Source: Paraspadella gotoi (Eukaryota; Animalia; Chaetognatha). Taken from it: 64,000 nt of DNA. The stretch is taken from positions 14,315,694 to 14,379,693 of the forward strand of contig CM119267.1 in the NCBI GenBank assembly GCA_051294375.1. Direction: 5' to 3'. The position numbers and the translations under genes are program-made. Within the stretch, counting starts at the first letter, position 1. Every line of letters starts with the position of its first letter. The notes under the pieces were generated by a model. It had not been told where the DNA came from. It saw only the letters and a list, made by a program, of their open reading frames with translations, and made no database searches. Below, one piece after another: positions 1 to 35,703 of the stretch.

Positions 1-2
1 AG

Positions 3-956
3 ATTTCTACGTCAGACGACGATGTTATGATTCTCAACGTGAACCTCGAAGAAGCAAAACCCTCGTCGACACCGAATTCGATAATGGAACCGAATTTTTC
101 GAATGAACCGATTACCAATGGGTCCGCTCCTAAAGTTTTAAGCCGCGCTTCGGGCTCTCGCAGTCGCCCTCCATCCCAATCACTTTCGCCCGTCGCTATT
201 AGCGCTCAAGCCCGCGTCACCGTTTCCGAAAAATCGGGCTCAAAAAAAGCAACGGCGGCCAAAGGTTCCTTCTCCCCAGTTACCATCATTCCAGCCTCTT
301 CCGGGTCCAAATCGAAAAAAGGTGCAGTGGTGAATCGCGACGTGGGGAAACCCTCCGTTCTTTCACGAATGGCACCTCGATCCATAACTATATTGGAGGA
401 TTCGTCATCGAATGCTAAGAGCGTTGGAGGAGCTGGCCAGACAAATGCTCAAGTTGCCTCATCCACTCCGAACATCCAACGACAGGCTGCGACAACCGGG
501 TCGCTTGTTTACCATTCCGTTTCTACTGAATCGGCCGAGCCGGAACCGTGGCTCGATGCATCTCGCGCTCTTGAAGCCAATCTCGAATTGCCATCAAACC
601 TGCCCGTTGCAAATGACCAATTTGTCTACCTTCAACTGTCCAATGGAGATATCGGAAAAATTTCCACTGCGGACTTTTTACAGTTGCAGCAACAAGCATC
701 ATGTCCGGAAAGAACCAGCGTTGGATCAATTCGACTAAACCAGAATCAGAATGACGACGTCAATTATAAAGTATTCGAAGAATTTTATCAAACCGATTCA
801 TCTTCTTCCTCTTCGTTAATTGTTCAAGGCGTTGACGGAATCGTAGGGGTCGACGAACGAGTAACTTTTAATGAACCACTTGGCGCCCCGGATGCATCCA
901 TAGGGGCTCAACTGGTTGATATCGATGGACAACTTTTTCAAATACAAGTACCGTGA
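3..956 (+). CDS. 3' part of an unknown Ser/Ala-rich, mostly low-complexity protein (starts upstream of the window)
   Basis: Frame is open from position 3 to TGA at 954-956. Exon-like GC content; AATAAA at 1009-1014. No recognisable domain. Confidence 0.65.
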   Translation: MSTSDDDVMILNVNLEEAKPSSTPNSIMEPNFSNEPITNGSAPKVLSRASGSRSRPPSQSLSPVAISAQARVTVSEKSGSKKATAAKGSFSPVTIIPASSGSKSKKGAVVNRDVGKPSVLSRMAPRSITILEDSSSNAKSVGGAGQTNAQVASSTPNIQRQAATTGSLVYHSVSTESAEPEPWLDASRALEANLELPSNLPVANDQFVYLQLSNGDIGKISTADFLQLQQQASCPERTSVGSIRLNQNQNDDVNYKVFEEFYQTDSSSSSSLIVQGVDGIVGVDERVTFNEPLGAPDASIGAQLVDIDGQLFQIQVP

Positions 957-1103
957 TCTTGCCGTTTCTTAGCCATTAACTACATATTTCCTCTTTTAAG
1001 TTGATTTGAATAAAACGATTATTTTTATTTTTAGCTCCTGCTGATTTGATTAGACTTTTGTTATAGTTTACGTTATTGTTATATTTTTCCAGAGAAAAAA
1101 ATC

Positions 1104-1376
1104 ATGGAAAAAACCATGGCTAAGCACTTGGAGGACGCTCTTGACCAACCGGGTGTCATTGGAGCGCTGACTACCGATCAGGGCGGCCTCCCACTATGCG
1201 TAAAAGGAGCAATCAATGCCTCCAACGCGGGATGCATTGCGGCGGCGGCGGAGAAAGCTTCCATGTTACATCCTGAGAAAAGAAATCCTGTGATAATCAT
1301 TGACATTTGTGACGGGAATTCGCTTATGGTCAAGCAGGATGAGTTGAGCACCACTATCGTCCACAAAAAAAATTAA
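1104..1376 (+). CDS. LAMTOR5: Ragulator complex subunit LAMTOR5 (HBXIP)
   Basis: 90 aa roadblock-type protein, MEKTMAKHLEDALDQPGVIGALTTDQGGLPLCVKG...PVIII...IVHK, matching the LAMTOR5 pattern. Acceptor atatttttccag ends at 1092. Confidence 0.9.
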   Translation: MEKTMAKHLEDALDQPGVIGALTTDQGGLPLCVKGAINASNAGCIAAAAEKASMLHPEKRNPVIIIDICDGNSLMVKQDELSTTIVHKKN

Positions 1377-1394
1377 AAAAAGACAAAAGACAAT

Positions 1395-2255
1395 ATGAAT
1401 CAAACAATTCCGACGCCCTTCTGTCCCCCACTTTTACATCCTCCTCCTCCTCCCGTACCACCTCCTCCTTCTGAACCTCCTCCTACTCCTAACCACCTTC
1501 AACCTTCCTGCACTAATGAACAATTAAATAAATATAGTGACCAAAACTATTACCCATTGTCCTCCATTGAAAAAGAACTGGTGTTGGCTTTGTCTCGCTC
1601 CGGTTTCGAACGCCAAACTTTCGAACTTATCATTCCGTCGCACATTCCCGAGATTAAGCTGCAGCGTGGTCCAACCTGCGGAATTACTGCGCTTCGAATG
1701 GCCTTGGACCTGGCAAGGGAGAACAACGCTAAAATACCTTTCCTATCCGACGAGGATATTATAACTATAGCTAAACAACGGGGATTTACAACTTATGGAG
1801 AAATTTTTTCTTGTTCGAATTTGCTCGACTTGGCCAAGACGCTTTTTGTCGAAGCGGCCTCACTTGAGATGGAGTTCCCTTCGACGGACTTTCCAACGAT
1901 CAAGCACAAGGTTGTGGAACATTTGAAGTCCCGAGGAACGATTCTCGTTCCTTACGACAAGGACCGGGACTTCACCCCTTGTTCACGTGGGGGATCTAAG
2001 GCTCATTGGGCGTTGGTTGTTGGCATTGCCACCGACGATCGCGAATCTGTCTCTTTAGTAGCGGCGCGACATGGACAATCGAAGCGAATAGTATTTTGGA
2101 ATTTGAACGATCTGATTAAGAGCAACCGACAGTTGATGGATTACGATTACGAGAGACTCTGTAAAGGGTGCCCCGCAGAGAAACCTGTCGTTCCCAAGGG
2201 AGGGTTAAAGGAGGGCTTGTTGGGTAAAATGATTTTTATTATTTCTGCTAGTTGA
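1395..2255 (+). CDS. ACTMAP: Actin maturation protease (C19orf54/UPF0692), cysteine protease-like
   Basis: N-terminal polyproline, QRGPTCG (catalytic Cys), GFTTYGEIFS, ILVPYDKDRDFTPC, GSKAHWALVVG, HGQSK, L..SNRQL. Intronless. Confidence 0.9.
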   Translation: MNQTIPTPFCPPLLHPPPPPVPPPPSEPPPTPNHLQPSCTNEQLNKYSDQNYYPLSSIEKELVLALSRSGFERQTFELIIPSHIPEIKLQRGPTCGITALRMALDLARENNAKIPFLSDEDIITIAKQRGFTTYGEIFSCSNLLDLAKTLFVEAASLEMEFPSTDFPTIKHKVVEHLKSRGTILVPYDKDRDFTPCSRGGSKAHWALVVGIATDDRESVSLVAARHGQSKRIVFWNLNDLIKSNRQLMDYDYERLCKGCPAEKPVVPKGGLKEGLLGKMIFIISAS

Positions 2256-2366
2256 TTTTCTAATTTTTCAATTTTTTTCAATTGGTGTGTTCACAGTATA
2301 AATAATTTTTCCTAATGTTTCCAATTCTTTCCATTAGTAGTATTTGATTTTTGAATTTTAAAAGAA

Positions 2367-5300
2367 ATGATTCGCGGTCAGGATCGTCGAATGGAACCCG
2401 GCCCCCCGGGAGAACCTTTTCTTTCCCCACGAAATGGCGGCCGACAAGGAGGATGGAACGAAGGAAGCGCTGGTGGTGACGTACATCTTATGGGACAGTT
2501 TCAGGGTGCTCCTCCGATGGCAGGAAATTTTCAGGGTTCAGGAAATATGGATGGACAAGATGGGTTTAACGCTCCCATCGGAGGCGATTATCCGGTAGGA
2601 GGTGGAAATTTCATCGGGGGAGACGGAGCTTTCGGTGGATCGGGCGGAGGAAACTTTGGGGTCGCGCCCATGGTAGGAGGAAATTTCGGCGTCGCGGCCC
2701 CGGGTGCGTCAGGCGGACATGTGGGCGGTGGTCACTTTCGCGGCGGGCGCGTGGGACGTCGCGGTTCCTTTCGAAAGTCGGGTCCTTCCCCGGATCGGCG
2801 ACGCAGACTGGATCAGTTTTCCGACTCTTCCTACTCCGACGAGGAGCCGTCAAATGAGAAACCGGTTAAAGGGGCCGGGGCTGAGGCGGAAGCCATGCCC
2901 GAAGATTCCGAACGAGACAAAGCGGGCGAAACCAACGGGAAACGTGGGCGATCAGCTCAGGGAGGAAGAAATCGCGGCGGAGAGCCAAAACGGTCTAGGG
3001 ATCGCGGCGACCGCCTGGATAGGTCGCGGAGGACCATCGTTTGGGACAAATCCAACGCCAAATTCTGGCAGAAACTCAAAGAACAGACTCGCGAACAGAT
3101 GGACTATCTCATCGACTCGGTTTACACTGAGGAAGTAAAAAAGTCTATCGGTGCTAACGCCCAACTCTCCCAGTACAGCATGGTCAAATGCGAGGCTTAT
3201 CTGCTTAACTTTGAAGACAGAAACTTTCCTATCTTCAAGGCCGAAGCGCAGGCTTTGGCCACTCCTGGAATTGAGCTCGAGGACATCGCCAAGAGACAGT
3301 TGGAACGAATTGGCTCTCGGCTGATGAAGGACAATTCGGGAGATAAATCTCACTTTCGCTTTAAACTCAATAGCTACGACGCCTATTTGCGAGCCATGGT
3401 CAATCGCAAGGCTTTACCTATCCAGTGGCACGACCTCCGCACTCTGGCCTTTCACTGGCCTCCCTTCGAGGACGAGGAAGAGGGTCGCAACTGGCTGCAA
3501 GAGCTGATCAAGAGGTTCTACAGCCTGGGCGCTTGTACGGTTGTTTTGCAGAAAGAGGGCCTACGACTCGAGGGCGAGGACGCGCAGGATCCTCATTTGA
3601 TCATGGCGGAAGAACCGTTCCCTCCCTTAGTTCGCTCTGTGCTGTTGGTCACCTTTTTCTTTCCTGAAACCGTGGATTTGCTGGCAGACTTAAAGATCAC
3701 CATGGATAAGCGTCCGCTCGTAGTACATCGAGTTCGTGCCGTCATAGGCGGATATGAGAAGGTTTTGCACCAAGGTTTCCCGCTTTACGTCTCTCTTTTG
3801 CCGCCCCAAGAATCTACACTGACGCGACCTAAAGACTTTGTCAACATCCAGGGTCCTGGAGCTCTGGCGCGGCAATTTCTTGGTCTACCACTTGCGGGCC
3901 CACACGACTCCAAGGCCAAAATCAAAGGTCCCGCTGGTGTCGACTTCGACTCAAATTATTCCAGAGGTCTATCGCCTTCTAAACAATCATATGAAGACGA
4001 CGGTCGAAAGAAAGAAAGGTCTCGATCTCGTTCCCGTCACCGCAAAGATAAGAAAGATGCAGGTGACGAAAAGAAAACTCGCGACTCTTCGCCGGGTCAT
4101 CACCATCGACGCAAGAAGCACCGCAGTCGTAGCCGAAGCCCGAGAGAACGAAAAAGCCGCAGCAAGAGTCGCAGCAAGAAGCACCGAAAATCTTCCAAAG
4201 CCGAGAAGGAAGCCCACGAGCATGTGGTGTCGTCCACATCGGGAAATGACAAGGGTGAAGAAGAAAATATTATCAAATACTTTCTTACGTCATCTGCGGA
4301 CGAGAAGCCTCTAGACTGCGAGGAGGTCAAAAAATATTTTTCCAAATTCGGCGAACTTGACTGGTGCATTCAGTCTGGTCTTAATAAGATGGCTGCCGCG
4401 TTCGCGTTCAAGGACGCTGGCATAAGCGTGCTTGTGGCTGGATATGGTCACAGGATCAACAAACGCGCCGTTATCCTACAGCCTATGGGGGATCACGGGC
4501 CGGTAGGGCAACCAACCGTGGCTACGGAGATCGGAGGAGAGGGCAAGAAGAATGACGCCAGCCGTGGGCGCCATCCCAATGGCGGCGAAGGGGGCGAATC
4601 TGGGGAAGAGGTCAATGCTGTGTGTATCCAGGGATTTGGTTTCGACGTGCCACAAAACATCATGCCCGATCTTAAAAATTATGTTCATTCCAAAGCTCAG
4701 CAATTGGGACTGCAAGATTTTCAGGGTCTTGCTACGATGGAAATGAGAAAGTCGGTGTCTACTAACGAATATTACTCAATCGTTTCTTTTAAAGACCAGC
4801 GCGACATGGATTCACTTTTAAACCATTCTTCTCATGTAATGACCGTCGGCGGGGTTCAAAAGTCCTTACATTTTGGTCCATACCAACCTCTGAGTGCTGA
4901 CGCTGAGCTGGAAGAAGCCAAAAACACCCGCTCTCTCTTTATTACTAACTTTCCAGGACAATCAAGTGGGATCGTTATCAGCAAAGAGATAGTGGAGAAC
5001 CACTTCCGTAAGCATGGAAGCATTCAACGCGTCATGTTAGCCGCACGAAAGACCGGCTATGATGGTATAATGTCTGCTGGAAAACCCGGTGATCTCTACG
5101 CGCTCATAACATATTACAACGTGACAGCGGCCGAAGCCGCCATCCAGTCTCGTCACGTCATTCCCGGAAGCGCGCAACCCTTGGCGGTAACGTGGTACAC
5201 ACGCCAGGAAGATTGGTCCGACTCGAACAAGAAAGCCAAGAGCGACGGCGTTGATGCAACCCCTCCGGCGCTATCGTCGCATCAACAGTTCGACTGCGCC

Positions 5301-6233
5301 ACCTATCCTACGTCCGCAGCCTCTAATCCGATCCAATCTTCATTCGTTCGACCGACGGCCACGAATTTTTTTGGTCCCGCTTCACAAAATCCAAATGTTA
5401 GCATGTTTTCCGTTCCTCCCCCTATCTGGTCGGGTGCAAACCCGAACGGTTCCGTCGCCGCTGGATATCCAGGAGCTGCGCCGGCGTCTTCCGACCCCGC
5501 GCCGAACTTTTCAACCGGCTCTTCGGGATTGCCTCAGTTTCCCAATGCCGTTTCGACGGGCGGGCCGCCAACTTCAGCCCCCGCCCCCCTTTCGACAAAA
5601 TCCGTTGGCGATTCGGCTTCTCAGGGTGACGGCAACGACGACCCGACCAATGCCATTTTGATCACGGGTTTTTCTAAGGAGAGAGATTACCACGATTTCA
5701 GCCTTTTCTTTCGCGGGATCGGTCGTATTCGCCGCTGCTATCTTAAATCCCACGAGACCGACAGTCGCTGGTGCGTGGTAACCTTTGAAAACCTTGTTGA
5801 CGCCAAAAAGGCTTGTACATCCGCCATCAAACTATCATTTCAAGTAAAGTACCACGAGTCCGACGAACTTACCATCCTCCCCCTCAACGAACATCCATTG
5901 GCTCCTCCGGAGGCCTTCCATGCGTGCAAGCCTTCCTTTTCAAGTTCGAGACATCATCACAGAGAAAAGGTTCAACATCATCCTCCAACGGCGCAAATGC
6001 CTGCGGTTGCGGCTCCGCCTTACCCGGGCGTAGTACCTACGGGACTGGGTGTTCCTCCGATGCCCATGACACAATCGCCCCTGCCGACCGGCGGCTACAA
6101 TCCGTTATTCGCCTCGACGACGGCGCCGCCGCCCGCCATGCCGCCGGCTGGGATGCCACCGGTCGGTTTTTCCATGCCTCCTCCTTCGGCCCCGATGCCT
6201 GGATCTGCTAATACATATCCGTACGGATATTGA
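2367..6233 (+). CDS. Large RNA-binding protein with Gly/RGG N-terminus, RS/His-Lys tract, about 4 divergent RRM-like domains and Pro-rich tail
   Basis: 1288 aa single ORF. RRM-like segments EEVKKYFSKFGEL..AFAF, SLFITNFP..VENHFRKHGSI..YALITY, AILITGF..WCVVTFEN; RSRSRS repeats. Confidence 0.8.
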   Translation: MIRGQDRRMEPGPPGEPFLSPRNGGRQGGWNEGSAGGDVHLMGQFQGAPPMAGNFQGSGNMDGQDGFNAPIGGDYPVGGGNFIGGDGAFGGSGGGNFGVAPMVGGNFGVAAPGASGGHVGGGHFRGGRVGRRGSFRKSGPSPDRRRRLDQFSDSSYSDEEPSNEKPVKGAGAEAEAMPEDSERDKAGETNGKRGRSAQGGRNRGGEPKRSRDRGDRLDRSRRTIVWDKSNAKFWQKLKEQTREQMDYLIDSVYTEEVKKSIGANAQLSQYSMVKCEAYLLNFEDRNFPIFKAEAQALATPGIELEDIAKRQLERIGSRLMKDNSGDKSHFRFKLNSYDAYLRAMVNRKALPIQWHDLRTLAFHWPPFEDEEEGRNWLQELIKRFYSLGACTVVLQKEGLRLEGEDAQDPHLIMAEEPFPPLVRSVLLVTFFFPETVDLLADLKITMDKRPLVVHRVRAVIGGYEKVLHQGFPLYVSLLPPQESTLTRPKDFVNIQGPGALARQFLGLPLAGPHDSKAKIKGPAGVDFDSNYSRGLSPSKQSYEDDGRKKERSRSRSRHRKDKKDAGDEKKTRDSSPGHHHRRKKHRSRSRSPRERKSRSKSRSKKHRKSSKAEKEAHEHVVSSTSGNDKGEEENIIKYFLTSSADEKPLDCEEVKKYFSKFGELDWCIQSGLNKMAAAFAFKDAGISVLVAGYGHRINKRAVILQPMGDHGPVGQPTVATEIGGEGKKNDASRGRHPNGGEGGESGEEVNAVCIQGFGFDVPQNIMPDLKNYVHSKAQQLGLQDFQGLATMEMRKSVSTNEYYSIVSFKDQRDMDSLLNHSSHVMTVGGVQKSLHFGPYQPLSADAELEEAKNTRSLFITNFPGQSSGIVISKEIVENHFRKHGSIQRVMLAARKTGYDGIMSAGKPGDLYALITYYNVTAAEAAIQSRHVIPGSAQPLAVTWYTRQEDWSDSNKKAKSDGVDATPPALSSHQQFDCATYPTSAASNPIQSSFVRPTATNFFGPASQNPNVSMFSVPPPIWSGANPNGSVAAGYPGAAPASSDPAPNFSTGSSGLPQFPNAVSTGGPPTSAPAPLSTKSVGDSASQGDGNDDPTNAILITGFSKERDYHDFSLFFRGIGRIRRCYLKSHETDSRWCVVTFENLVDAKKACTSAIKLSFQVKYHESDELTILPLNEHPLAPPEAFHACKPSFSSSRHHHREKVQHHPPTAQMPAVAAPPYPGVVPTGLGVPPMPMTQSPLPTGGYNPLFASTTAPPPAMPPAGMPPVGFSMPPPSAPMPGSANTYPYGY

Positions 6234-6724
6234 TACTCGGAATTTCGCATTTCAAAAATTCGGACAGACTAAGAAATTAATTCGTGGGAAAAAATTATAT
6301 TGTGACTTATTCAAGTTTTTTTTCAGATATTTAGAATCGGTTAATGTAATTGAATTCAGATATTTTCCGAAACACGTTTTTTCGCCGTTGTTTATTAAAG
6401 GCTGATTTTGCGGTCTCTATCGCAATTAGCGTTTTTTGTTTTTGTTTCAATTTTTTTTTCCTTTACGATGTTTAATCATCGTCATGAACTTTTCAAAGGA
6501 ATTTGTAGTATTTACATTTAATAAGTTTTTGACATGTTTCCAATTTATTTCTATTTCAGGTTAAGTCTCAAAATGTAGTAAAAAATTATACTGATCAATC
6601 TTGATTGTTTAACTTACTATGTACTTTTTTTTTGACAAAAGCAAGTCAATATGATTTGCCCGTTTATAAATCATAATTTCATCTTTTGTTGCATTTTTTC
6701 GGTTTCTTCCTCAGGCACGTAAAA

Positions 6725-8109: not shown

Positions 8110-8655
8110 AAAGCTATATTTAGCTTACATAATATGAAAATAAAGACCCATATAAATATTTCAGTAAGCTTATTTACTAATTTTAGATTTTATTAACTGT
8201 TTGTTAGCTATATTTATTAATAAATAATAATAAAAAATAAGCTAAAGTAAAAAAATAAAAAAGTAAAAATTTTAAAACCGGGTTTTAATTCCTTACAAAA
8301 AGTTGATATAAGAAAGTATAATCCATTTTAACAAATTCTTTCATTAAGTTGGTTAAAAATGTTAAAAACTTTTTTTTTAAGTAATTTTTAATTTTTAGCT
8401 TAAAATTATAGTTTTTTTGAATTTTGACCAACTTAATGACATAATTTTGGAATAAAAATTATATTTTCTTATATCAACTTTTTGCAAGGAATACAAATCC
8501 CAAAATAAAATTTTTAAATTATTATTTTTTAACTTTAACCTAATTTTTACTCATAATTATTAATAAATATAGTTAACTAACTTTTTATAAAATTTAGAAA
8601 TAAACTTACCAAATTTTTTTATATAAGTCTTTAATTTTATATTTCAAAAGCTCAT
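8110..8655. mobile_element. AT-rich imperfect foldback palindrome (MITE-like)
   Basis: Inverted arms, e.g. aaaagttgatataagaaa (~8297) vs tttcttatatcaactttt (~8466) and taagttggttaaaa vs ttttgaccaactta, centred near 8390. Boundaries approximate. Confidence 0.65.
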
Positions 8656-8899
8656 GTGGCGTGATTTTGGTTCGCCTCTTTTTTCGCTTCTTTGTGACCG
8701 TTGTCGACGTCGTCACGCTTCTTTACCATCGTAAATTTTCTCTCTTTTAATTATATATCGCTCTCTCTCTCTCTCCCTTTTTTTCCGTCGCTTCTTCTTC
8801 TGATTCGTCTAAAAACCAGTTCAGCTCTGCAGCGGCTATCCAACTTCTCTCTAGCTTTTTTTCTCTTTTTCTCTCTCTCTCATACATGCATGTTTTATT

Positions 8900-9440
8900 T
8901 ACAATGAATGACGAGAGTTTATGTCCAATAATCATCGTGTCAATGAATGATTATCATCGCCTCAATTATTGGTTATCATCGCATCAATATTTGGTTATCA
9001 TCGCATCAATAATTGGTTATCATGGCACTAATAATTGTTATCATCACATAAATCAATTATTATTACATCAATAAATCAATTACTATTACATCAATCAATC
9101 ATTTTCTATTATATAAATCAATCAATTACTATTATAAAATCAATCAATTTCTATTACATTAATCAATCAATTATTATTACATTAATCAATCAATTACTAT
9201 TACATTAATCAATCAATTATTATAACATTAATCAATCAAATACTATTATATTAATCAATTATTATTACATTAATCAATCAATTACTATTACATCTGTAGT
9301 TCGTCGCTCTTAACTTCCTTTTGTAAAAGTGTTTAAAAATATAAGCAAAATGGAAAACCCCGCTCATCACATTAATTACTATTACATCAATCAATCAATT
9401 ACTATTACATAAATCAATCAATTACTATTATTTTATCGTT
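8900..9440. repeat. Low-complexity minisatellite (aatcaatcaattactattacat-like units)
   Basis: Visible tandem units. A related tract, with a similar ctctgcagcggct flank, occurs at ~24170-24450. Confidence 0.8.
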
Positions 9441-9772
9441 TTTAATTTATTTAATTTAATAGTGGTATGATGGTGGTGTTTTTTAAAATCCACGTTTCTT
9501 AAAAGAGATTTCAACCATAACAACTATTCCTATGTGACCAAAGCGAAATATGGGAGAAGCTAACTCAAAACAGGCAGCCAGAAACTTTATGCAGAATGTC
9601 CCTGGAAAGGTTTGTTGCAAAACGTAAGAGCTTTTTTGGTTGATGTAGCGGTGACAATAGGTTTCTTTTGCGTTGTAATATTTACTTGTTATAAAAAAAT
9701 ATACGTATAAAGTGATCACCGCTGCATTCGTATCTTATTTTTTCACGAAGTAAAACAGAGACAACAGACGTT

Positions 9773-9925
9773 ATGGCAAATCCAGAAGAAGTCGAGGTAA
9801 AGGATAAAATCGCTTCGAAGCAGTCTCTCGTGACTCAACTTCATAGCATCGGATCTGACATTAGTAAAAAGAAAAGCGCGGTCGTGGAGGAAACAGAATC
9901 AAGAGCCTCGAAGTCGTTAAAATGA
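9773..9925 (+). CDS. Putative 50-aa small ORF (MANPEEVEVKDKIASKQSLVTQLHSIGSDISKKKSAVVEETESRASKSLK)
   Basis: GC-elevated island preceded by acceptor-like tatcttattttttcacgaag (ends 9750) and followed by a T-rich spacer of 118 nt before EXD1. Too short for the ORF track. Confidence 0.45.
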   Translation: MANPEEVEVKDKIASKQSLVTQLHSIGSDISKKKSAVVEETESRASKSLK

Positions 9926-10043: not shown

Positions 10044-12290
10044 ATGTCGTTGGCGTCTCGTCTCAATGGCACTGAGATCGAAATATTGACAACGGACGGT
10101 CAAGTAAAAGGCATCGTCAACCAAATAACTTTCAAACCTGGGGGCAACACTCTCGAGTCGGTTAAATCCGTGATTATTGATAACGTGTGGGACTTGACAA
10201 TGGGGGTCCACATTCACGGATTGCAAACCTTTAATGCCTCCGAGATAATTCGTTTCGTTAGCATCAGACCCTCGAATACTGAGGAAATTAACGAGGGAGG
10301 CACTCCTCCCCCAAACGATAAACCTTTGGAGAACGGCGCTGCTCCTGAGACTATGCTCAGAGTCGATGCCTTTTACATCGTGCTCGAATCGATCGGTGTC
10401 GTAGAGTTTCTTGTTGCCCTCGAAAGCATTCGTCACCAGCGTCGGATCGGAGTCTCTTTTTCCGGCTCACTACTCGGTCGTAATGGTCGCCTCGCGTACA
10501 TACAGATTGCGACAAAGGACACAGTCTTTCTCTTTGATATGATATCCCTCGGTCGCGCCGGCTTTGATCAGGGGCTGAGAGAGGTTTTCGCCAATCCCGA
10601 AATTGAGAAAGTGATGCATGATTGTCGCGCCGCCGCCGATTTTCTTAAGCATCAATACGATACTGACCTCGTTAACGTGTTCGACACGCAAGTTGCGCAG
10701 CTCCTTATTTGCTGGGATAGTGGATCACCCGCAAACATCGAGTCACTCTCGGCCACGCTGGCTTCTCATCTTCGGATTAGGGATGAGTCTGACGGCAGAG
10801 AACAATCTTCTCGTCAGGGCGAATATGGGCAAAGATTCTGCCGACGGCCTCCGAGCGAAGATCAGTTGAGATTCATGGTCAAGGAAGTTTTCTATCTCCT
10901 GTCACTTCGTCCAGTATTAGCAAAAAAACTGGCTCTGGAATTTCGCTGCGGCGTGGAAGTTTTTCTTACAAGTTTGAGAGACGCTGGCAATCTCCCTACG
11001 GAAGCCAATCGCCTGAAGCTTCCTGTGGACTTCCGTCGCATGGTTGCTGAAAAACGTGCGGATGCGACATTTTTTGATTCTCTCGATGATAATGGGCAGT
11101 TTATCGTACATCGTTTGTTGTTACGCAGCATTCCGGGCGAAAAATTAAAGAGTCATTTTGATTGCGTCAAAGCTAAAGAATTCGTGGGCAAAATTAATGT
11201 TTGCGTTAATCCGAAATCTAAGATAGCTCGTCAATTGCTGAAAAAGATGCGAATAGAAAGTGAAATGCCCAATTTGTTGCCATCAATTAATGAGCCTAAG
11301 GAGGTGCTTACTCATTATAAAACTTGCAGCAAAGATTTTTATTGAAAATAGCAATTAACACTAAGGATATTTTTGAAAACATTTTTTACGAATGTTTTGA
11401 AAAATTGTTCTTTATTACGATAATACATAATAATTAGTAAAACTGGAGAATCATTCAGATTTGAAGCGTCGGTTTTATATAATGATTAGACACCTCGATT
11501 CTACGTTATTTAGCTTATTCCTGATAATATGGTTAAAGAAACTATTAGTAATTTAGAAGATTTGCCTCCTTTGGAGAAATGCTTTTTAGAGGAATCTTAT
11601 TCTTTGCCATCCCTCGTTCCATTTTCGCCATCGTCGTCTCCGAAACGTTCAAAGACGTCGACCGTTGATACCCTAACACCCGTTAAAGACATGGGGTCAT
11701 CTAAATCCTTAATCCCGGTGGGAAATGTATCGACATACCCTTCCGAAATTCCGGCACTAAATCCGCCGCTTAAGCCGCCGCCATTCTTGGCTCAGGCTTT
11801 TTCTAAACCCGCTGTTCATTTACATTCAATTTCAAAACGTCGACCTAAGATTTGTTGTCCCGCCGGGAGAGAATACTTAAAATGTCAGCCGCAACAGCGA
11901 CAACAAGAGATGTCGGATCCCTCCGCGTCGACCGACGAATGGAGAGAAGCAGATAATTTTACTGTCCCTACATCGCGACTTGACCAAGATCTCAGTACGC
12001 AGCGACGTCTTAGAAAAGTAAAAGCATTGGAAGAACTATATCGAAATTGTTATCTTGATGATTCACTTGAAGCGCGTATCTCCGCCGATTTTCCTGTCTC
12101 TTCTTCGTCCTCTACTCTTGAGATAGCCGCCGAAGGTCGTTTGGCAACTCCAGAGGGTTTCCACGATGTGGAATCCTGGGAAGAAGCAGTTCAAATAAAT
12201 GAGAGGCCCCTCTTAACGCCGGCATCGTCCAATGATTTTGTTACTGATTTCTCTGTAATTCCCCGACCAACCTTCATTTGGCCATGTTGA
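10044..12290 (+). CDS. EXD1: piRNA biogenesis protein EXD1 (Lsm-like N-terminal domain plus degenerate DEDDy-type exonuclease domain)
   Basis: GRNGRLAYIQIATKDTVFLFD and KVMHDCR..DFLKHQY...NVFDTQVA in 10044-11345. ORF 11514-12290 can be joined in phase 0 through an intron at 11304-11513 (weak GAG|GTGCTT donor). Otherwise it is a separate gene and EXD1 ends at 11345. Confidence 0.8.
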
Positions 12291-20282: not shown

Positions 20283-20474
20283 TATTATTTTTTAGTCAAA
20301 TGAGTTAAATTTACTTTTCAGTGATTTTATTTTTTGGGATTTCTTGCATTTTGTCTATAACATTTATTAATTACATTATTATTATTATTATTATTATTAT
20401 TTTCCAAATCCATTTTACACATTTTTCCATGTAAACTAATTACAAATGAAACCATTAATGCATTTTCAGTAAAA

Positions 20475-21760: not shown

Positions 21761-21806
<46 letters not shown>

Positions 21807-24800: not shown

Positions 24801-26322
24801 TTTTAAAGAAATCTTATATACTATAAGTAATAAATAATATGATAAGTAAAAAGAAAAGTAATGCGGCGCAACACCTTGGAATAACCATTCCTTGTTTTGT
24901 GACCACAATCTGTTCCCACAAACTACTCGATATAATTTTATGAAATTTTACAATATAAATGGAACTATCGAGGCGAATTTTGATATTCAACCCCTGACAA
25001 GACATACAGGGCCTTGGGGGTGGACTCCTGGGGGGTTAAAAAAAGTTTAAAAAATGTTTTTGATTTTTAAAATTTTTTAGTACCACATTGACATTTTAAA
25101 CAGATAAAAAAATATTTTAGAACTAAAATTGATAAATTTAAATAATTAAGCATGGTTTGAAGATGTATGGTTCGTTTTATTTCCAATTTTCTCAAATTAT
25201 TCAAAATCTGACTTAAACTGCTGATGTTCATGAAGTTGAAAATTAAAGTAAACTAATATTTTGGTGGTAATAAATATGTTTTTGTGGAAGAGGAAACGAC
25301 TATGCAACTTTTCAAAACAGAAATAATAAAAAAAATTTTAAAAGATTTTGACAAAATTTTGCCCCTATTGGTGACCCCTCTGCTCAGGGGTAAAATATTA
25401 AAATTCGCCTCGATAGTTCTGTGGATAAGGCGCTAAGTGGGGCTGAAGAGCAGCCATAGAACGGGTCCTGGGCTTGGAACCAGGCTTGAGGGTTTTCCAC
25501 GCCCCCAAGGTGGCTTACCTAGAGGTCATGAGCTGATGGCTTTACTCAATGAGCCACCGGGTCATGACTGAAGGTGTCGTGCTTATAGGCGGGGTGAACC
25601 TAGGCAATGCCCGACTACAGTTCTATTTGTATTCACATCGGAATCGTTCATTCCAAATTTTAAAAAAATTAGGTCCAGTAGTTTTCTCGGAACATGTTCT
25701 TCATTTTATAATATGAAACCTTCTGTAAGTCACTTGTCGGTCGGTATGTCTGTCCGTCGGTCTGACCCACTTACGTTACAAATACTTATAATTCGCTTAT
25801 ATTTGGTTGCTCATTTGTTAAGACAGGAAAAAACGTCAAATCTAAGTGACTGCAAGCGCCGCCTTCAGGAAATCATAAAACTATAAAGTACAAAAGCAGT
25901 ACATGTCATATATACACAGGCTGTGATCATAAGAAAATTCACGTGAAAATAAAGTCACTGCGACGCAACACATAGGATGAACCCATCTTGTAATTTGGGC
26001 ATAGGTCATCTGCGATCGAATCGTCGATCATTTTTGCGGAAAAAATCTAATGACTCATCAGTATGACCGGGTGAAGATTCACGCCACTATCATGAACACA
26101 CTTTTTCGTCGTGACAACAGTGGTACCGACGCACCATCTTTACGCGGCGACGAGAGAATAGCCGTACGAAAAGATCGGGAGTCGTTTGACGCCCAAAAAC
26201 TATTAAAACTTTTCGCTGAACAAGATTTTGGGGAACATACAATCTCTGAAATTCATTTGTCAACCCGATACTCGACGGCGTCGGACGGTTATTATTTACC
26301 TGCTGCGAAGTTTAAGTTGTAA
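20475..26322 (+). CDS. ASCC1: Activating signal cointegrator 1 complex subunit 1 (KH plus 2H-phosphoesterase domains)
   Basis: MDVLRPPLI....CYRKNP start, KH motif FLIGARG, HLT and HAT motifs. Exons 20475-20615, 20755-21104, 21170-21446, 26005-26322; the last intron is about 4.56 kb and filled with TEs. Confidence 0.93.
21480..23612. mobile_element. Non-autonomous Tc1/mariner-type DNA transposon, about 2.1 kb
   Basis: Perfect 29-bp TIR caggggtgggaccatatatcgagacaaaa (21480-21508; reverse complement at 23584-23612), flanked by TA on both sides. No ORF; contains (TA)n and internal copies of another AT-rich repeat. Confidence 0.9.
23773..24048. mobile_element. MITE-like element, about 275 bp
   Basis: About 40-bp near-perfect inverted ends: aaatttagatatagcttctcaacatcaagatct vs agatcttgatgatgagaagctatatctaaattt. 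Confidence 0.7.
24630..24895 (+). mobile_element. Short non-autonomous Helentron/DINE-1-like element (second copy at ~25725-25991)
   Basis: T-rich start ttttagttgcg, gtcggtcggtatgtctgtccgtcggtctg microsatellite-like core shared by both copies, and a gcgNcgcaac sub-terminal inverted repeat near the 3' end. Confidence 0.55.
24896..25700. mobile_element. Long-inverted-repeat non-autonomous element; related arms at ~38860-38960 and ~41340-41465
   Basis: gaactatcgaggcgaattttgatatt..cccctga (~24962) is inverted relative to tcagggg..aatattaaaattcgcctcgatagttc (~25384-25419). Shared gtagtt..tgggaacag...tggtcacaaaa end motif. Confidence 0.6.
25420..25619. mobile_element. Solo LTR (200 bp), probably Ty3/gypsy-type
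   Basis: GC-rich island with termini TGTGG...CTACA and a 4-bp target-site duplication GTTC (25416-19 and 25620-23). Removing it restores the host element arm. Confidence 0.75.
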
Positions 26323-28870: not shown

Positions 28871-30309
28871 ATGCTGACAAATTTTGAAAGTTTGTCCCCG
28901 TCTTCCCCGAAAAAAATGCGTTTGGAGTTCGTCGATTCCACTTCCGAGGAATTACCGACCGCACAGGTCGAAACTTTTAAATCGTCCTCCCGCGCGTCGC
29001 AACCAACATCAAAGAGCTTTTTGCCAGTTTCAATACCCAATCGAGTTGTGGCCATTTTGCCGCCGCGGTACTATCGTCCCGTGACGACGACCAAGGTTTT
29101 GGCGGCAAAGATTCTTGACAAAACCAAATTGAATCTTCTCCTACAAGCAGCCTGCAAGACTTTACGACTGAGCGACAACCTTTCTCATTTGAAACGGTAG
29201 TACGAACGTAACCTTACAATAATAAGAAAAAAAAATATCCTTGATTAATTTTTTTTTCCAGAGTAAAGTCTATCAATGTAAATGATAACGGGAAGCCTGA
29301 ACTTCATTTAATCGTTAGTGACGTCAAAAGTGTCGAGTTTGACGATGCAGGACAGTAAGTGTTGTACGTTCTTGAAAAATATTTGAAAACAAATTCTATC
29401 ATGTTTCTTCCCCACCAACAAAGTGAGCATCTGCTCNNNNNNNNNNAACCATAAATTATTTTTTTCGCTTATCTCATAATTCGACTTATTTTCAGTCTGG
29501 TCGACTATGCTCAACAACTTTTCTCCCGATCCCTGGAACTCTTGAAAAAAGATAATCCTGAAATCGAACCTTATTTGGCGTTCATTGGAGAACCTTATTT
29601 TACCGACGTTTCTGACAGGCCTCCTTTAACTCGTCACTACTACGAACGAGCGCGAACCCTGTGGCCTTGTACTTTTCACGAGGACAAAAGAATCGCCTCT
29701 CTTATCGATGGAAGTTTCTTCTCTTCCATGAAACTCGACATAATCCGCCGTTATATGCGCGACGCAGTTTTATTCTCACGACGCGCCGCGCTTTTTTACG
29801 AGGTCGAAGATCTGACCGCCTGTCTGATGGTTGACAATTATGACGGGCGCGTCGTGGCTCGCGCCCACGATCTCACGGGACTCGGGTCCACTCAGAAGAA
29901 AGAACCATTCGACGAAGATACTAAAACTACAAAAATACTTCCCTATTATCACGCGCCGATGATAGGGATCGATTTAGTCGCTCAGAGTCAAGGCGGTGGA
30001 GCGTACAATCTTGGCGTTGAGGAGTTTCCGCTGTTATTTATCGCTCCGGACAATGCCGCTGAGAAAGGGGAAGAAAAAAGACAAAAAACTGACAATGAAG
30101 AAGACGGCTCAAGCTACCTTTGCACCGGATATGACGTTTACCTCACGACGGAGCCTTGTTTGATGTGCGCAATGTCTCTCATGCATTCGCGTATCAGAAG
30201 ACTTTTTTACCTTAGACCCATAAGTGATGGGGCGCTGGGGTCAAAATTTTTCATCCACGCGATGGATTCGTTAAATCATCACTTCGAAGTCTTTCGACTG
30301 GAGGATTGA
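28871..30309 (+). CDS. ADAT3: tRNA-specific adenosine deaminase non-catalytic subunit ADAT3/Tad3
   Basis: LSHLKR, WPCTFHEDK, HAPM in place of HAE, YLCTGYDVYLTTEPCLMCAMSLMHSRIRRLFY, LNHHFEVF. Exons 28871-29196, 29262-29354, 29496-30309. Confidence 0.93.
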
Positions 30310-30663
30310 AGTAGAAATATACTATGAAATTAAATTCAACTGGGGCGGGGGTTCAAAACTTTAGTCTTGATGTCTAATTTCAGATAAAAAAAAATTTCTT
30401 TAAAAAAGTTCGATTTTAATGGTTTTAAAAATTACTATATGCTATCAAAATTAGACATCGTTATTTCCTTTCGTTTCGCTATCAAAATTACAATATTACG
30501 ATATAATGATAAAAAAAATTTTAATCAATGTTTGATGGATTCTGATAAAGCATAAAAAGTTAAATAAAAAATATAACTACAACTTTCAAAAATTCTTATG
30601 TTTTCTTGGTCAAAATTAAGAATAAGTAATAAAATTATCGATATATGATGATGATGATTACTA

Positions 30664-31283
30664 TTAATAGGGGTAGCCCCACTCAATGGGGTGGGTCCAA
30701 AATTTAGAATGATTACATGCTCAAACGAAAATTTATACATTTTTAAATAAACTTTAAATGGACAAAACATTTCTCATATGGCTCTATACCCAAATAATTA
30801 TTTTTTAATATTTATTTATAGATAGGAAAGGCCAAAAATTTTTTTTAGAATTTTTTAATTTTAAGACCAGATTCAGGATGCTCATAAAAAGTTATCTACA
30901 CCAAGTATAATTTTTTAAAAATATTTTTATGATAAGTGAGTCAAAAATAAGAAAACCGTAGCAAGTTGTCACAATCATCATCTTTCAATGATTTTATCAT
31001 TTTTTTTATATTCTCACTAAGAAAACGTAGGAATTTTTAAAAGCTATAATTATATTTCTTGTTTAACTTTTTATGCTCTATCAGAATCCATCAAAAATTT
31101 AAGATTTAAAAAAAAATTTTTATAATGAGAAAAAAGACCAGTAATATTTAATGTATTAATCAAGACGTATAATGTAAATTTTTTTTGAAAATGATTGCTT
31201 AAATTATAAATATTTAGTCAACTAAAAAAAATTTGCTATTAGTCGAAATTTTATATTATCTCCGGAGTTAGTCCCTACTATTA
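30664..31283. mobile_element. AT-rich MITE-like repeat in the ADAT3-GTF3C5 spacer
   Basis: Shares caatggggtgggtc, aaagttatctacac.aagtataat and gctctatcagaatc with ~21870-22330 and 22570-22860, and in reverse with ~43210-43320 and 43840-44000. Imperfect inverted ends. Confidence 0.65.
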
Positions 31284-31428
31284 AAAAAAAACTTAAATAA
31301 TGTTTTAGCCTTTCTTATTTATAAATAAAGAGCGAAAAAGTTGTTTTAGTTTTATTTTAAACAGTTTTAAAAATTTATTTTGTTTATTTTGTTTATTTTG
31401 ATCGTTAATATTATTTTAGATTTTTAAA

Positions 31429-33219
31429 ATGGCGTTTATACCCTTCGACTCCTCGAAGAAATTCGTCTGCGTCGAGTACCCAGGCATCGTCAAAAATACG
31501 GACAAACTGCTCCAAACACTTGGGGGAATAGAAACCATTTCAAAGACTCACGCTGACTCTTCACGCCGCTTGGAGCTGAGACTGAGACCCAACGACGTGT
31601 ATTGCAAACCAGCTTGCGCGGATCGATGTTCCACCAACAACGTTCTTTTGCGCGTACGTCGTAAAAAGCCCAAACCGGGCAGTGATAGCGACTTGGGGTC
31701 CAACGATCCCCTCCAATGCGCCATCGTCGGCGTCGTCGACACCACCTACAAATTCAAGTCCATGTGCGACTTCCAATATCTTCCGGCCACTTCCATCCTG
31801 AAGCGCGTTCTTCCCACCGACTCTTTCTCTCATTCAGCTTTAGAAGCGGCGGAGAGGCGCGAATGGAAATCTTTGACGAGCGAGTTGGTGGTGGACAAAA
31901 TCGAGAACTCGACCTGGCTCGAAAAGCCATCTCCTCTTTTCCTTCCGCCCCCGATCTTCTCTAGACAAGACACTCCAGTGGAGTATCTCTACCGACCAGA
32001 ACCCAAGCATCGAAACCCGAAAACCAAACAAGACTCACGGGCGGGTTCTTCGTCCACCGCTCCCAAAGCTCCGTGGAACGATGTCGACGGAAAAGACTTG
32101 AGCGCCTCAAAGGAGCACGTGACGCCTCATACGAATTTGATAGGGGTGGCCAGGCAGCGTCGCGCGGCGTACACAATCTTCGTCAATTTCGATGACCCAG
32201 AAGTGCCCCAGAGGTAATTACATCATTATTTACGGGGGCTCCGAGACCCCAGGTTCCGTCAATTTCGTTTTTGTTTCAGACCCATTCCCGAAGCGGAGAA
32301 AGCGGCCGCGACCCGAATCCATGACGAACGTGACAAGCGACGTCTGGAAGACATCAGGCGTCTCTTCAATGAGCGTCCAATATGGAGCAAAAACGCGCTT
32401 AAGTGCAAAGTGGACGTTGCGCCGGACAAACTCAAACTTATTCTTCCCGTCGTTGCCTACTTTTTTATTACAGGCCCCTGGCGCTCTCTCTGGGTTCGAC
32501 TCGGATACGATCCTCGACAAGACCCAGCATCCAAAATGTACCAGCTGGTCGACTTCCGTATTCGTCAACGGTCTGCTGCAGACAAAATCTGCATCCGGTC
32601 TAAGCGAAGCACGTATAGTTACAATTTGCCAAACACCGTGCAAAAGGCCCAACCACCGGTTGTGAGGATTTTTCAGGAAGATCTCGAACTCAAATCGAGC
32701 GACCGCGACGCTTCGTCCTCCCCCGTAAAGGACGACGAAGTCAAAAAGAAATCCGACTCTATCTACGTTTTTCGCAAAGGAACGCTCCCTCCTTTCCGCC
32801 AGATGTTCTACCAACTCTGCGACATTGAGGACGAAGAAGTGCAGCAGCTGTTAACAATTAACGAGGGCAAAGAGATGGAGCGAGGCTGCACCGAAAAGGA
32901 CGGATGGTGCTTGGAAGGAATGCAAGACAAGGCGCGGGACATAATCAGCCAGAGGTTGAAGGAGACGTTAATGGAAACAACCGGGGAGGATGCAGGCGAA
33001 ACGGCTGAGGGGAGTTCTTCGAAACCTGCGCTGGTTGAATCGAAGATGATATCGACAGGGAAAGTTAAGAGAAGCAAATCCAGCAAAGAGGACCTTCTTG
33101 ACAGGACCGGCGACGACGATGACGCCGCCGAGATGGACTACGGAGATCTGGATCAATCTTCTGAAAGGGAGACGGCGATGGAGGAGGATGATGATGAGTG
33201 GTTGCCTGGACGCGTTTGA
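31429..33219 (+). CDS. GTF3C5: General transcription factor IIIC subunit 5 (tau95/Tfc1)
   Basis: CVEYPGIVKN..K.LQTLGG, FKSMCDFQYL, FLPPPIFSRQDTP, LFNERPIWSKNAL, YFFITGPWRSLWVRLGYDPR, GWC, acidic tail. Exons 31429-32213 and 32280-33219. Confidence 0.95.
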
Positions 33220-33273
33220 GATTAGATTTCATTTTCAATTTAATTTTTTTTTAGTTGTAAAAATCGATAAGTA

Positions 33274-33957: not shown

Positions 33958-34062
33958 TATTTATTTATTGATGTTTATTATTTTGATATTCGCACTGTAA
34001 CTACTTCCTCTTATACACTAGTTTGCATTTCGCTGAATATGATTGATTTTTTTTCAGGCACC

Positions 34063-34800
34063 ATGTCCCAAAAAAGTTTAAAAATCAAAGATGACTTGGA
34101 GAAGTTTGAGGAAGATTCTTTACTCTCTCAGCGATCTCCTTTCTCATCCCAGGAATCGGGAGAGCTTTCGCAGCACGACTCAGATTCGGGACTTTCGTGT
34201 TCGATGCCCAATAATGATGTGAAACAGATTTCCTCTCCAAAAACGTCTTACATTAAAGACGACCCCGGTTCATCGCAAACCGGTTCGGACATTCTCGAAG
34301 AAATGGAAGCTTTTGTCAAAGTTTTGCGTAAAAAACGAGCTGACCTTCGAATCAGCCAAAGAAAGTTTGCTCAAAAGATGAAAATAATTCATCCAAACAT
34401 CTCACAATCGACGGTTTGTCGATTTGAAGGCCTCGAGCTGTCTTATCGAAATATGGCAACGCTGAAGCCGTTCTTTGAGACCGGCCTTTCGATCCTCGAA
34501 AAGGGATACTTGTCATCTGATAAAAGAATCCAACTATCTAGCAAAGCCCCGAAAAAGAGAAAATGTCGAACCGTGTTGACACAGAATTTGTCAATGTCTC
34601 TCGAAAAGGCGTTTAAGGCGAATGCCCGACCTTCGTCTGAAGAAATAGTTGTCATTGCAACTCACTGCGATTTGGATTACGACGTCGTTTACAATTGGTT
34701 CCTCAACAAAAGATCCGGATTAAGAAATAAGAATGAAAAGAAAATGAAGCATTGTATTTGTAATTGCCAAAGCGATGATTGTCAATTCTGCGAACTATAA
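34063..34800 (+). CDS. Divergent POU-domain homeobox transcription factor
   Basis: POU-specific domain EEMEAFVKVLRKKRADLRISQ...ISQSTVCRFEGLELSYRNMATLKP and homeodomain KKRKCRT...LEKAF....RPS.EEI...VVYNWFLNKRS. ATG follows ttttttttcag|gcacc. Confidence 0.88.
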   Translation: MSQKSLKIKDDLEKFEEDSLLSQRSPFSSQESGELSQHDSDSGLSCSMPNNDVKQISSPKTSYIKDDPGSSQTGSDILEEMEAFVKVLRKKRADLRISQRKFAQKMKIIHPNISQSTVCRFEGLELSYRNMATLKPFFETGLSILEKGYLSSDKRIQLSSKAPKKRKCRTVLTQNLSMSLEKAFKANARPSSEEIVVIATHCDLDYDVVYNWFLNKRSGLRNKNEKKMKHCICNCQSDDCQFCEL

Positions 34801-34964
34801 CAAGATATGTTGGGGTTAATTTTCGATTATTGTATTCAAAATTTCAATATTGCTAAAGCAAAACATTAGTTGTTTTTTTTGAACGACTTTCATTAGTTCG
34901 AGTTTAAAAATACGAATGATTTCGATATGTACCTTTTTTTCTTTTTTCAGTTACAGTCCAGACA

Positions 34965-35703
34965 ATGATAATGCCTCTAGTCGATCCGACTGAGACGGAC
35001 CATCCTTACGCATTAAGCACGTGGGAGGGACGCTTTCCATGCGTCATTCCAGGAGACGGGGTCAATGACTTGTTACGAGTTAAGGCGCCGAAAAGTTACT
35101 GGCTCGCGCTTGAATCCCAATACCCCGACTATTTCAACCAATACGGATTTTCCCCAATCGAGGTGCTTCGAAGGCAGCTCTATGGATCTAACGGATGTCC
35201 GCCGCTCGGTGAATCCTTCACGACAAGGGTTCGAAGAACGATTAGGTACGAGGGGTATATTTTTAAATCCTTCAAATCATTCAATTTTAAGTTTACGAAT
35301 TTTTAATTATTTTTTCAGCGCGCTTCGAAAAACTTTTTACGACACCGACTGGCACGAAAAATCAGACTTCAAGAATGATTTAATGTGGATTAGCATAAAG
35401 CGGCATGACTTTCTTTACCCGGCTCAAGTTGATTTTCCCAACTACGTGACACCGCCCCCTCGGTTTGGGCCCAAACCCCATCCTTCCGCCATGAAAGAAC
35501 ATATTCCAAACTACGACCCAGGAAAAGATCCCGAACCCGCGGACGAGTTCGAGTGGGAGGCGATGTTAGGAATTCCTCAAATCGGTTGCGAGTCCGTGGT
35601 CGCCGACGAGCATTGTCAAGTTAGCAATGAAGGCGTCGGTCAGATCGTTCACTATTACGACAGTGACATAACTGAGGGCATAAACTTTGTTGACTCTGCG
35701 TAG
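34965..35703 (+). CDS. Uncharacterised two-exon protein, about 220 aa
   Basis: Exons 34965-35245 (alternative donor at 35255) and 35319-35703 join in phase 2. Strong upstream acceptor ttttttcttttttcag ends at 34950. Confidence 0.65.

What the first reader, a model, noticed from the sequence alone, without database searches (positions are those of the whole stretch)
3..35703. Candidate giant SL-trans-spliced animal operon of 16-17 cistrons
Seen: every gene over 35.7 kb is on the + strand. Stop-to-start spacers are 147, 18, 111, 491, 1968, 118, 814, 208, 97, 192, 146, 272, 1119, 54, 105 and 164 nt, and the two longest are filled by MITE or satellite insertions. Nearly every ATG lies 5-50 nt after a U-rich 3' splice acceptor with no evident upstream donor: AG ending at 1092, 6714, 13080, 14899, 19220, 20469, 26433, 28821, 31419, 33254, 34057 and 34950. 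Known: this layout defines SL-resolved operons in nematodes, tunicates, flatworms and chaetognaths, where operons typically have only a few genes. Inference: this is one very long polycistronic unit, or a few, and it extends beyond the window's 5' edge.
Basis: partly seen in the sequence, partly recalled or inferred. Interest (0 to 1): 0.85.

Follow-up and report, generated by a model that had tools for sequence, protein, structure and literature searches.

The report
Very long arrow-worm gene operon
Seventeen genes lie head to tail on one strand in what is likely an arrow-worm genome; assembled RNA carries the published arrow-worm spliced leader in front of one gene and runs across most gaps between the last twelve, so they likely form one or two unusually long operons, probably longer than the nine-gene maximum published for this phylum.

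Summary
The layout is real: 17 open gene models lie on + over 35.7 kb, all 12 listed AGs exist, and 15 of 16 spacers reproduce. One run of spliced RNA contigs carries 22 non-genomic letters at acceptor 20469. They equal the 3' end of chaetognath SL1, so this is likely an arrow worm, where SL operons are already published. Of 11 spacers between genes 6 and 17, 7 are bridged inside single spliced contigs and 2 are covered to within 9 nt of the acceptor. In the MITE-filled spacer, 13 of 13 changes are A>G on one arm of a predicted hairpin, which points to read-through. Verdict: known mechanism, unusual size; about 12 genes likely read through, against published maxima of 8-11 (14 by distance alone). 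The scan earlier noted a nine-gene operon on another piece of this genome.

The parts
3..956 (+). gene 1, 5'-open ORF, no Pfam hit
1104..1376 (+). gene 2, LAMTOR5; acceptor AG ends 1092
1395..2255 (+). gene 3, ACTMAP-like protease; 18 nt after LAMTOR5 with no U-rich acceptor
   Evidence: PF21646 E=1.5e-31; AGs only at 1381, 1388, then 1536
2367..6233 (+). gene 4, 1288-aa single-exon RRM protein
   Evidence: PF00076
6725..7804 (+). gene 5, 359-aa protein of unknown family; acceptor 6714
   Evidence: no Pfam or NCBIfam hit
8131..8643 (.). palindromic MITE-like repeat in the 1745-nt spacer
   Evidence: self-BLAST
8644..8931 (.). unique CpG-rich island, candidate internal promoter (inferred)
   Evidence: 12 CpG per 150 nt, GC 0.43, joint highest of 16 non-coding stretches, tied with a stretch inside the ASCC1 intron
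8931..9430 (.). 22-23 nt satellite arrays
9550..9925 (+). gene 6, 82-aa two-exon ORF (intron 9624-9750)
   Evidence: joint in RNA contig, open frame
10044..12290 (+). gene 7, EXD1-like 3'-5' exonuclease, 2 exons (EXD1 label recalled)
   Evidence: PF01612; intron seen
13105..14701 (+). gene 8, 468-aa predicted membrane transporter, 2 exons; acceptor 13080
   Evidence: weak TIGR03340 E=0.002; intron seen
14910..19141 (+). gene 9, valyl-tRNA synthetase, 11 exons; contig starts at 14900 with 5 non-genomic letters
19239..20282 (+). gene 10, intronless AcuI/YhdH-family acrylyl-CoA reductase
   Evidence: TIGR02823 363 bits, above cut-off
20450..20469 (+). trans-splice acceptor that receives chaetognath SL1
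   Evidence: 22-nt loose end at 20470 equals the last 22 nt of SL1 in Table 3 of PMC2481426; absent from window
20475..26322 (+). gene 11, ASCC1-like KH plus 2H-phosphoesterase, 4 exons, 4558-nt repeat-filled intron (ASCC1 label recalled)
   Evidence: PF00013, PF10469
26469..28598 (+). gene 12, HMG-box protein; optional 66-nt in-frame intron 27422-27487
   Evidence: PF00505 weak; joints
28871..30309 (+). gene 13, ADAT3-like deaminase, 3 exons (ADAT3 label recalled)
   Evidence: PF00383; joints
30329..31152 (+). MITE-derived predicted hairpin in the 1119-nt spacer (arms 30527-30652 and 30974-31099, 82% complementary)
30549..30592 (+). cluster of 13 A>G differences between RNA contig and window, likely A-to-I hyper-editing
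   Evidence: 12 of 13 pair with 31034-31077 in the predicted fold
31429..33219 (+). gene 14, GTF3C5/Tau95, 2 exons; contig starts at 31420 with 5 non-genomic letters
   Evidence: PF17682, PF09734
33274..33957 (+). gene 15, RNase P subunit RPP38
   Evidence: PDB 6ahr_C E=7e-13
34063..34800 (+). gene 16, single-exon POU homeobox gene
   Evidence: PF00157, PF00046
34965..35703 (+). gene 17, 221-aa lineage-restricted protein, 2 exons; acceptor 34950 joined to 69 non-SL letters; contig runs on to 36425

Best explanation
This is a run of 17 same-strand genes, likely from a chaetognath (arrow worm), in which a spliced leader is seen joined to one gene start, and genes 6-17 (12 genes, 26 kb) are likely transcribed as one read-through unit that is cut into single mRNAs by 3'-end formation and leader trans-splicing at each U-rich acceptor. 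Shown: gene layout, cis-introns, SL1 at 20469, spliced contigs crossing 7 of 11 spacers. Inferred: that the 5 clipped letters at 14900 and 31420 are the TTAAA end shared by all chaetognath SL forms; that the A>G cluster is ADAR editing of a MITE hairpin and so marks read-through to at least 31077; that bridged spacers come from polycistronic precursor. Genes 1-5 likely form an upstream operon that may or may not be continuous with the rest; a promoter may lie at 8644-8931. Transposons appear to have inflated two spacers, so a 250-nt distance rule would cut the unit into pieces. Internal promoters are not excluded.
For: SL1 match 22 of 22 at 20470, exactly at the AG, absent from the window. Contigs begin exactly at 14900 and 31420 with 5 unaligned letters; all SL forms in the published table share their last 5 letters, so an assembly graph would branch there. 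Spacers of 118, 814, 97, 146, 272, 54 and 105 nt lie inside contigs whose introns are removed; those of 208 and 164 nt are covered to 9 and 1 nt from the acceptor (2385 of 3289 spacer bases in listed records). Most intron-containing bins and the 103-nt intron stretch 25900-26002 show no extra depth, so DNA background is unlikely. 13 of 13 changes are A>G within 44 nt, 12 pair with a downstream arm, and none of the other window copies has G there. The run holds 96% of sampled words of 1-8000, of which 12% is non-coding. Median spacer 155 nt.
Against: One run, contigs only; a contig across two genes shows no single molecule. Full leader seen at 1 of 10 listed acceptors laid; 2 indirect; 6 are crossed collinearly with no leader visible; 1 (34950) carries 69 letters that are not a listed SL and not in the window. 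The 192-nt spacer (simple repeat skipped) and 1119-nt spacer are not bridged; 31360-31419 has no cover. The edited hairpin could simply be a long 3' UTR of gene 13, and alleles or another MITE copy were not excluded with DNA reads. Extra depth is unexplained in 3 intron-containing bins (9460-9869, 27356-27719, 29176-29539). With the published 250-nt rule on coding ends the blocks are 4, 1, 2, 5, 1, 4.
Confidence: 0.62

Rival explanations
1. Several ordinary short operons (about 4-5, 2, 6 and 4 genes), each with its own promoter in a long spacer, lie in tandem on one strand. Contigs join them only because 3' UTRs and outrons overlap.
For: Blocks by distance are 4,1,2,5,1,4 (250 nt) or 5,2,6,4 (500 nt). 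The long spacers of 491, 814 and 1745 nt have unique sequence with 8-12 CpG per 150 nt and AATAAA/ATTAAA hexamers. The 1119-nt spacer is not bridged. Published chaetognath maximum is nine.
Against: The 814-nt spacer is covered end to end inside one spliced contig. The 1119-nt spacer is 63% repeat, CpG-poor (5 per 150 nt) and appears transcribed to within about 340 nt of the next acceptor.
Confidence: 0.3
2. Independent monocistronic genes in a compact genome, each with its own promoter and a cis-spliced non-coding first exon; leader addition is occasional.
For: Acceptor 34950 is joined to a non-SL piece. Donor-like sites occur in some spacers.
Against: SL1 at 20469. Spacers of 54-146 nt leave little room for a 3' end, promoter and exon. 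No joint from a spacer donor is listed.
Confidence: 0.05
3. Artefact: the bridging reflects genomic DNA in the run, or the gene order is an assembly error.
For: The run is only guessed to be RNA. The window holds a noisy duplicate of 32660-43809 at 52027-64000.
Against: 21 shown joints remove introns, most intron bins have no extra depth, and the contigs independently give the same gene order with almost no other letters.
Confidence: 0.03

Closest known systems
Chaetognath SL-resolved operons: Spadella cephaloptera RPS14-PCNA (PMC2481426, sections 12 and 13 read) and Paraspadella gotoi operons (PMC12460157, section 10 and passages read)
   Same: Same leader family (SL1 end identical, 22 of 22), co-oriented genes with short spacers, mostly housekeeping content, apparently more than one SL form per gene.
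   Different: Longest published operon has nine genes with other content (ribosomal proteins, ubiquitin, proteasome), called with a 250-nt rule. Here 12 genes are largely RNA-bridged and 17 are co-oriented, with repeat-inflated spacers, an edited MITE hairpin and a POU homeobox gene inside. The paper's spreadsheet of operons could not be read and may already list parts of this locus or its ortholog.
Operons of C. elegans (2-8 genes) and Macrostomum lignano (maximum nine) per PMC8629364; Schistosoma japonicum (nine) per PMC12582326; tunicates (up to 11) per PMC4122922 (passages read)
   Same: Polycistronic precursor resolved by SL trans-splicing; intercistronic gaps near 100 nt; Macrostomum spacers are also inflated by repeats.
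   Different: Unrelated leader sequence; all smaller than 12. With the Macrostomum rule (repeat-adjusted gap under 1 kb) all 17 genes here would be one operon if all are trans-spliced (700 and 415 nt after subtraction).
Pristionchus pacificus operon-like clusters (PMC4138322, passages read)
   Same: Long same-strand clusters, maximum 14 genes.
   Different: Called by a 3500-nt distance threshold; median gap 1149 nt against 155 nt here.
ADAR editing of DNA-transposon inverted repeats in C. elegans (PMC4317174, passages read)
   Same: Clustered A>G changes in a non-coding inverted repeat of a DNA transposon.
   Different: Here it lies between two cistrons and rests on one contig; ADAR and editing do not occur in the main text of the chaetognath genome paper.

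Membership tests
SL-resolved animal operon | adjacent genes on one strand with short spacers | tested here: met
   17 of 17 on +, median spacer 155 nt; 11 of 16 under 250 nt
SL-resolved animal operon | non-genomic leader joined at the acceptor of a downstream gene | tested here: met
   SL1 at 20470; 1 of 10 laid acceptors directly, 2 indirectly
SL-resolved animal operon | every downstream cistron receives a leader | tested here: inconclusive
SL-resolved animal operon | RNA continuity across intercistronic spacers | tested here: inconclusive
SL-resolved animal operon | single promoter at the head, none inside | not testable with these tools
   needs CAGE, ATAC or ChIP; CpG scan points to 8644-8931 as a candidate
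SL-resolved animal operon | poly(A) site close to the next acceptor | tested here: inconclusive
   AATAAA/ATTAAA absent before the best acceptor in 10 of 16 spacers; no poly(A) reads available
Chaetognath SL system | leader matches a published chaetognath SL | tested here: met
   22 of 22 letters to SL1 of PMC2481426 Table 3
Chaetognath SL system | SL RNA gene elsewhere in the genome | not testable with these tools
   no genome held; leader absent from window; no Rfam hit in 1-52000
mod(mdg4)/lola-type alternative terminal cassette (for gene 17) | protein lacks its own start and is fused to a constant front half | tested here: not met
   3 full-length relatives start at a Met a few residues before the same motif; no longer relative found (weak)

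The most novel reading that the evidence does not exclude
All 17 genes, with more beyond the 5' edge and perhaps the lipoyltransferase gene at 39.8 kb, are one RNA polymerase II unit of over 36 kb: the longest animal operon among those I found in print. It is read through transposon-filled spacers whose hairpins are ADAR-edited, it includes a POU homeobox gene, and the 69-nt piece on the last gene is an exon from the operon head spliced across the whole unit. Chaetognath genomes would then approach kinetoplastid-like long polycistronic transcription that 250-nt rules hide.
Probability: 0.22. Interest if true: 0.72.

Novelty: new member of a known kind. Interest (0 to 1): 0.5.

Why it matters
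The mechanism is published for arrow worms, so the value lies in size and anatomy. If 12 or more genes are read through, published operon sizes in this phylum are underestimated because transposon insertions split units under a fixed distance rule. The locus would be a ready test of how long an animal operon can be, whether developmental regulators such as a POU gene are really kept out of operons, and whether ADAR acts on intercistronic hairpins. A-to-I editing also offers a way to detect read-through across repeats that assemblies cannot bridge.

Tried and rejected
No whole genome was held, so no SL RNA gene search or genome-wide operon size distribution. The metagenome scan for relatives of the AcuI-like gene gave 1 locus of 167 candidates, bacterial-looking and useless for synteny. 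The ValRS search showed a slow-evolving bilaterian (best 58-59%) but no phylum. The first permutation test of acceptor scores was invalid because of a placeholder value for ATGs with no AG, and was replaced by rank and Fisher tests. A text search for the leader letters found 0 papers; the match came from reading the table, where the sequence is printed with gaps. The cassette idea for gene 17 was rejected, although only the frame of its ATG is open across the 30 shown letters of the loose piece. The Atlas gave no answer for gene 5. Rfam: 0 hits. Loose ends at 11385, 20787, 26407, 30534 and 33171 were taken as chance or repeat matches and not followed up. Lack of contig cover at 31360-31419 and near 20400-20469 is not used as evidence of a transcript end, since the tool skips repeats there. 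Searches for longer animal operons; for editing in operon spacers. The library lacks most subscription journals.
Full report
Observation. The window is animal DNA with spliceosomal introns. I built 17 gene models on + between 3 and 35703; all 17 translate without internal stops. The only Met-started minus-strand ORF over 120 aa is antisense to the HMG gene. Fifteen of 16 spacers reproduce. The exception is the small ORF at 9773, which RNA shows to be exon 2 of a gene starting at 9550, so that spacer is 1745 nt. A U-rich AG lies shortly before 13 of 16 ATGs against 37 of 161 non-coding ATGs (p=6e-6, rule set after viewing; rank test p=7e-4). Donor-like GT sites do exist in several spacers.

Gene content. 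Pfam, NCBIfam and PDB hits give LAMTOR5, an ACTMAP-like protease, an RRM protein, a 3'-5' exonuclease, valyl-tRNA synthetase, an AcuI/YhdH-family reductase, a KH plus 2H-phosphoesterase protein, an HMG-box protein, a deaminase, Tau95/GTF3C5, RPP38 and a POU homeobox gene. The labels EXD1, ASCC1 and ADAT3 are recalled from domain layout and come from no call. Genes 1, 5, 6 and 17 have no family hit; gene 8 has only a weak membrane-protein hit.

The RNA run. One public run, X1, holds 96% of sampled words of 1-8000. It is only guessed to be RNA, but its contigs skip introns: 15 of 17 joints are shown for 9460-21750 and 6 of 6 for 25900-36800. I recomputed the depth of each bin from the listed records. 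Most intron-containing bins, and the intron stretch 25900-26002, carry no extra depth; three intron-containing bins do. DNA background is therefore unlikely, though an assembler can drop rare paths.

The leader. The contig for gene 11 begins at 20470, exactly after the AG, with 22 letters that lie on nothing in the window. They are identical to the last 22 letters of chaetognath SL1 in Table 3 of PMC2481426 (section 12 read). This marks the animal as a likely chaetognath; I did not determine the species. Two more contigs begin exactly at an acceptor with 5 unaligned letters: 31420 and 14900 (depth accounting fits a start at 14900, not 14895). All SL forms in the table share their last 5 letters, so an assembly graph with two or more leaders would break just there. 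The letters were not shown, so this is inference. Six other listed acceptors (13080, 19220, 26433, 28821, 33254, 34057) are crossed collinearly. That is expected if short leader tips are pruned when a genomic path exists (recalled assembler behaviour), but it shows no leader. Only 6 of 13 loose ends were shown; all 5 were shown.

A counter-example. Acceptor 34950 is joined to 69 letters that do not end like a listed SL and are not in the window. Three full-length relatives of gene 17 start at a comparable Met, so it is not a terminal cassette. The piece may be a cis exon from outside the window or from an assembly gap, an unlisted leader, or a paralog's exon. It is unexplained.

Continuity. 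Between genes 6 and 17 there are 11 spacers. Seven (118, 814, 97, 146, 272, 54, 105 nt) lie inside contigs whose introns are removed. Two (208, 164) are covered to 9 and 1 nt from the acceptor, where the next contig starts with its foreign 5' piece. The 192-nt spacer is interrupted by a skipped simple repeat, and the 1119-nt spacer is not bridged. A contig across two genes is not a molecule, so this shows continuous RNA cover, not one transcript. For spacers of 54-146 nt a separate promoter is hard to fit. For genes 1-5 the only evidence is the 96% word share against 12% non-coding sequence, which argues that most spacer sequence there is in the run.

The edited hairpin. The gene 13 contig runs 320 nt into the MITE-filled spacer and differs from the window at 13 places within 30549-30592, all A>G. 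Folding the spacer pairs 12 of the 13 with 31034-31077; without that arm the pairing is weak, and none of the other copies of the repeat in the window has G at these places. This is the pattern of ADAR hyper-editing, known from DNA-transposon inverted repeats in C. elegans (PMC4317174, passages). It implies RNA reaching at least 31077, about 340 nt from the next acceptor. It rests on one contig with no matched DNA, and it fits a long 3' UTR as well as a precursor.

Where a break could lie. The 1745-nt spacer is 60% repeat, but holds a unique CpG-rich island at 8644-8931, a plausible promoter by inference; an equally CpG-rich stretch lies inside the ASCC1 intron, so the sign is weak. ATG 9550 has no good acceptor, as may suit a first gene. 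I therefore favour an upstream block of 5 or more genes and a downstream block of 12, with continuity of all 17 possible. By the published 250-nt rule on coding ends the blocks are 4, 1, 2, 5, 1, 4; at 1 kb they are 5, 8, 4.

Mechanism. Polymerase II likely starts at an operon head and reads on; each gene's 3' end is formed in the U-rich spacer and the next acceptor takes an SL. Shown: layout, introns, one full leader, RNA cover. Inferred: the other leaders, read-through, editing, promoter position. AATAAA or ATTAAA is missing before the best acceptor in 10 of 16 spacers, so 3'-end signals were not located.

Comparison. SL operons in chaetognaths are published: RPS14-PCNA in Spadella, and in Paraspadella 18% of genes in operons with a longest of nine genes, called at under 250 nt (PMC12460157, section 10 and passages). 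Its spreadsheet supplement was too large to read and could already list parts of this locus or its ortholog; three PDF supplements held nothing relevant. Other maxima, from passages: C. elegans 8 and Macrostomum 9 (PMC8629364), Schistosoma japonicum 9 (PMC12582326), Ciona 6-7 (PMC7986045), tunicates up to 11 (PMC4122922), Pristionchus 14 by a 3500-nt distance rule (PMC4138322). Passages of PMC2566580, PMC2776167 and PMC7704054 gave background only. I found no longer animal operon in searches, within a library that lacks most subscription journals. An earlier scan note reports a nine-gene operon on another piece of this genome; it was seen after my own leader match and is not independent proof.

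Verdict. A real SL-resolved operon region of a known kind, in a phylum where this is established. What is new is the probable size (about 12 genes read through, 17 or more co-oriented) and the edited intercistronic hairpin. The claim of a single 17-cistron unit remains open. Interest 0.5.

Noticed in passing
window 52027-64000: Duplicate of 32660-43809. The first part is 86% identical with 448 gap letters against 178 mismatches, like an uncorrected long read; a later 2710-nt part is 100% identical. Likely an assembly artefact, not a second set of genes.
   Followed up: partly
window 39760-40460: Frameshifted lipoyltransferase-like gene on + in noisy sequence, with a U-rich AG 2 nt before its ATG. 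The same-strand, acceptor-led run continues 4 kb after gene 17.
   Followed up: partly
window 19239-20282: Intronless AcuI/YhdH-family acrylyl-CoA reductase. In a 120-row tree it groups (SH-aLRT 100) with unnamed proteins, a copepod and a diatom, apart from the named bacterial rows; possibly a horizontally spread enzyme of marine eukaryotes linked to DMSP or acrylate (function recalled).
   Followed up: partly
window 1104-2255: LAMTOR5 and ACTMAP are 18 nt apart with an A-rich spacer and no U-rich acceptor; may be a bicistronic mature mRNA translated by reinitiation.
   Followed up: partly
window 34063-34800: A single-exon POU homeobox gene sits 105 and 164 nt from its neighbours inside a bridged block, although developmental genes are reported as depleted from chaetognath operons.
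   Followed up: no
window 15921-15982: GC-AG intron in valyl-tRNA synthetase.
   Followed up: partly
window 27422-27487: Optional 66-nt in-frame intron within the HMG-box gene; contigs break here.
   Followed up: no
window 34965-35703: Gene 17 belongs to a small unnamed family: 6 relatives among 1.84 billion representatives, 59-70% identical over exon 1, none named.
   Followed up: partly
window 44285-50912: GC-rich, frameshifted coding-like stretches in noisy sequence, without a convincing Pfam hit.
   Followed up: no
window 21447-26004: The 4558-nt intron of gene 11 holds several MITE-like and satellite repeats shared with the long spacers.
   Followed up: no
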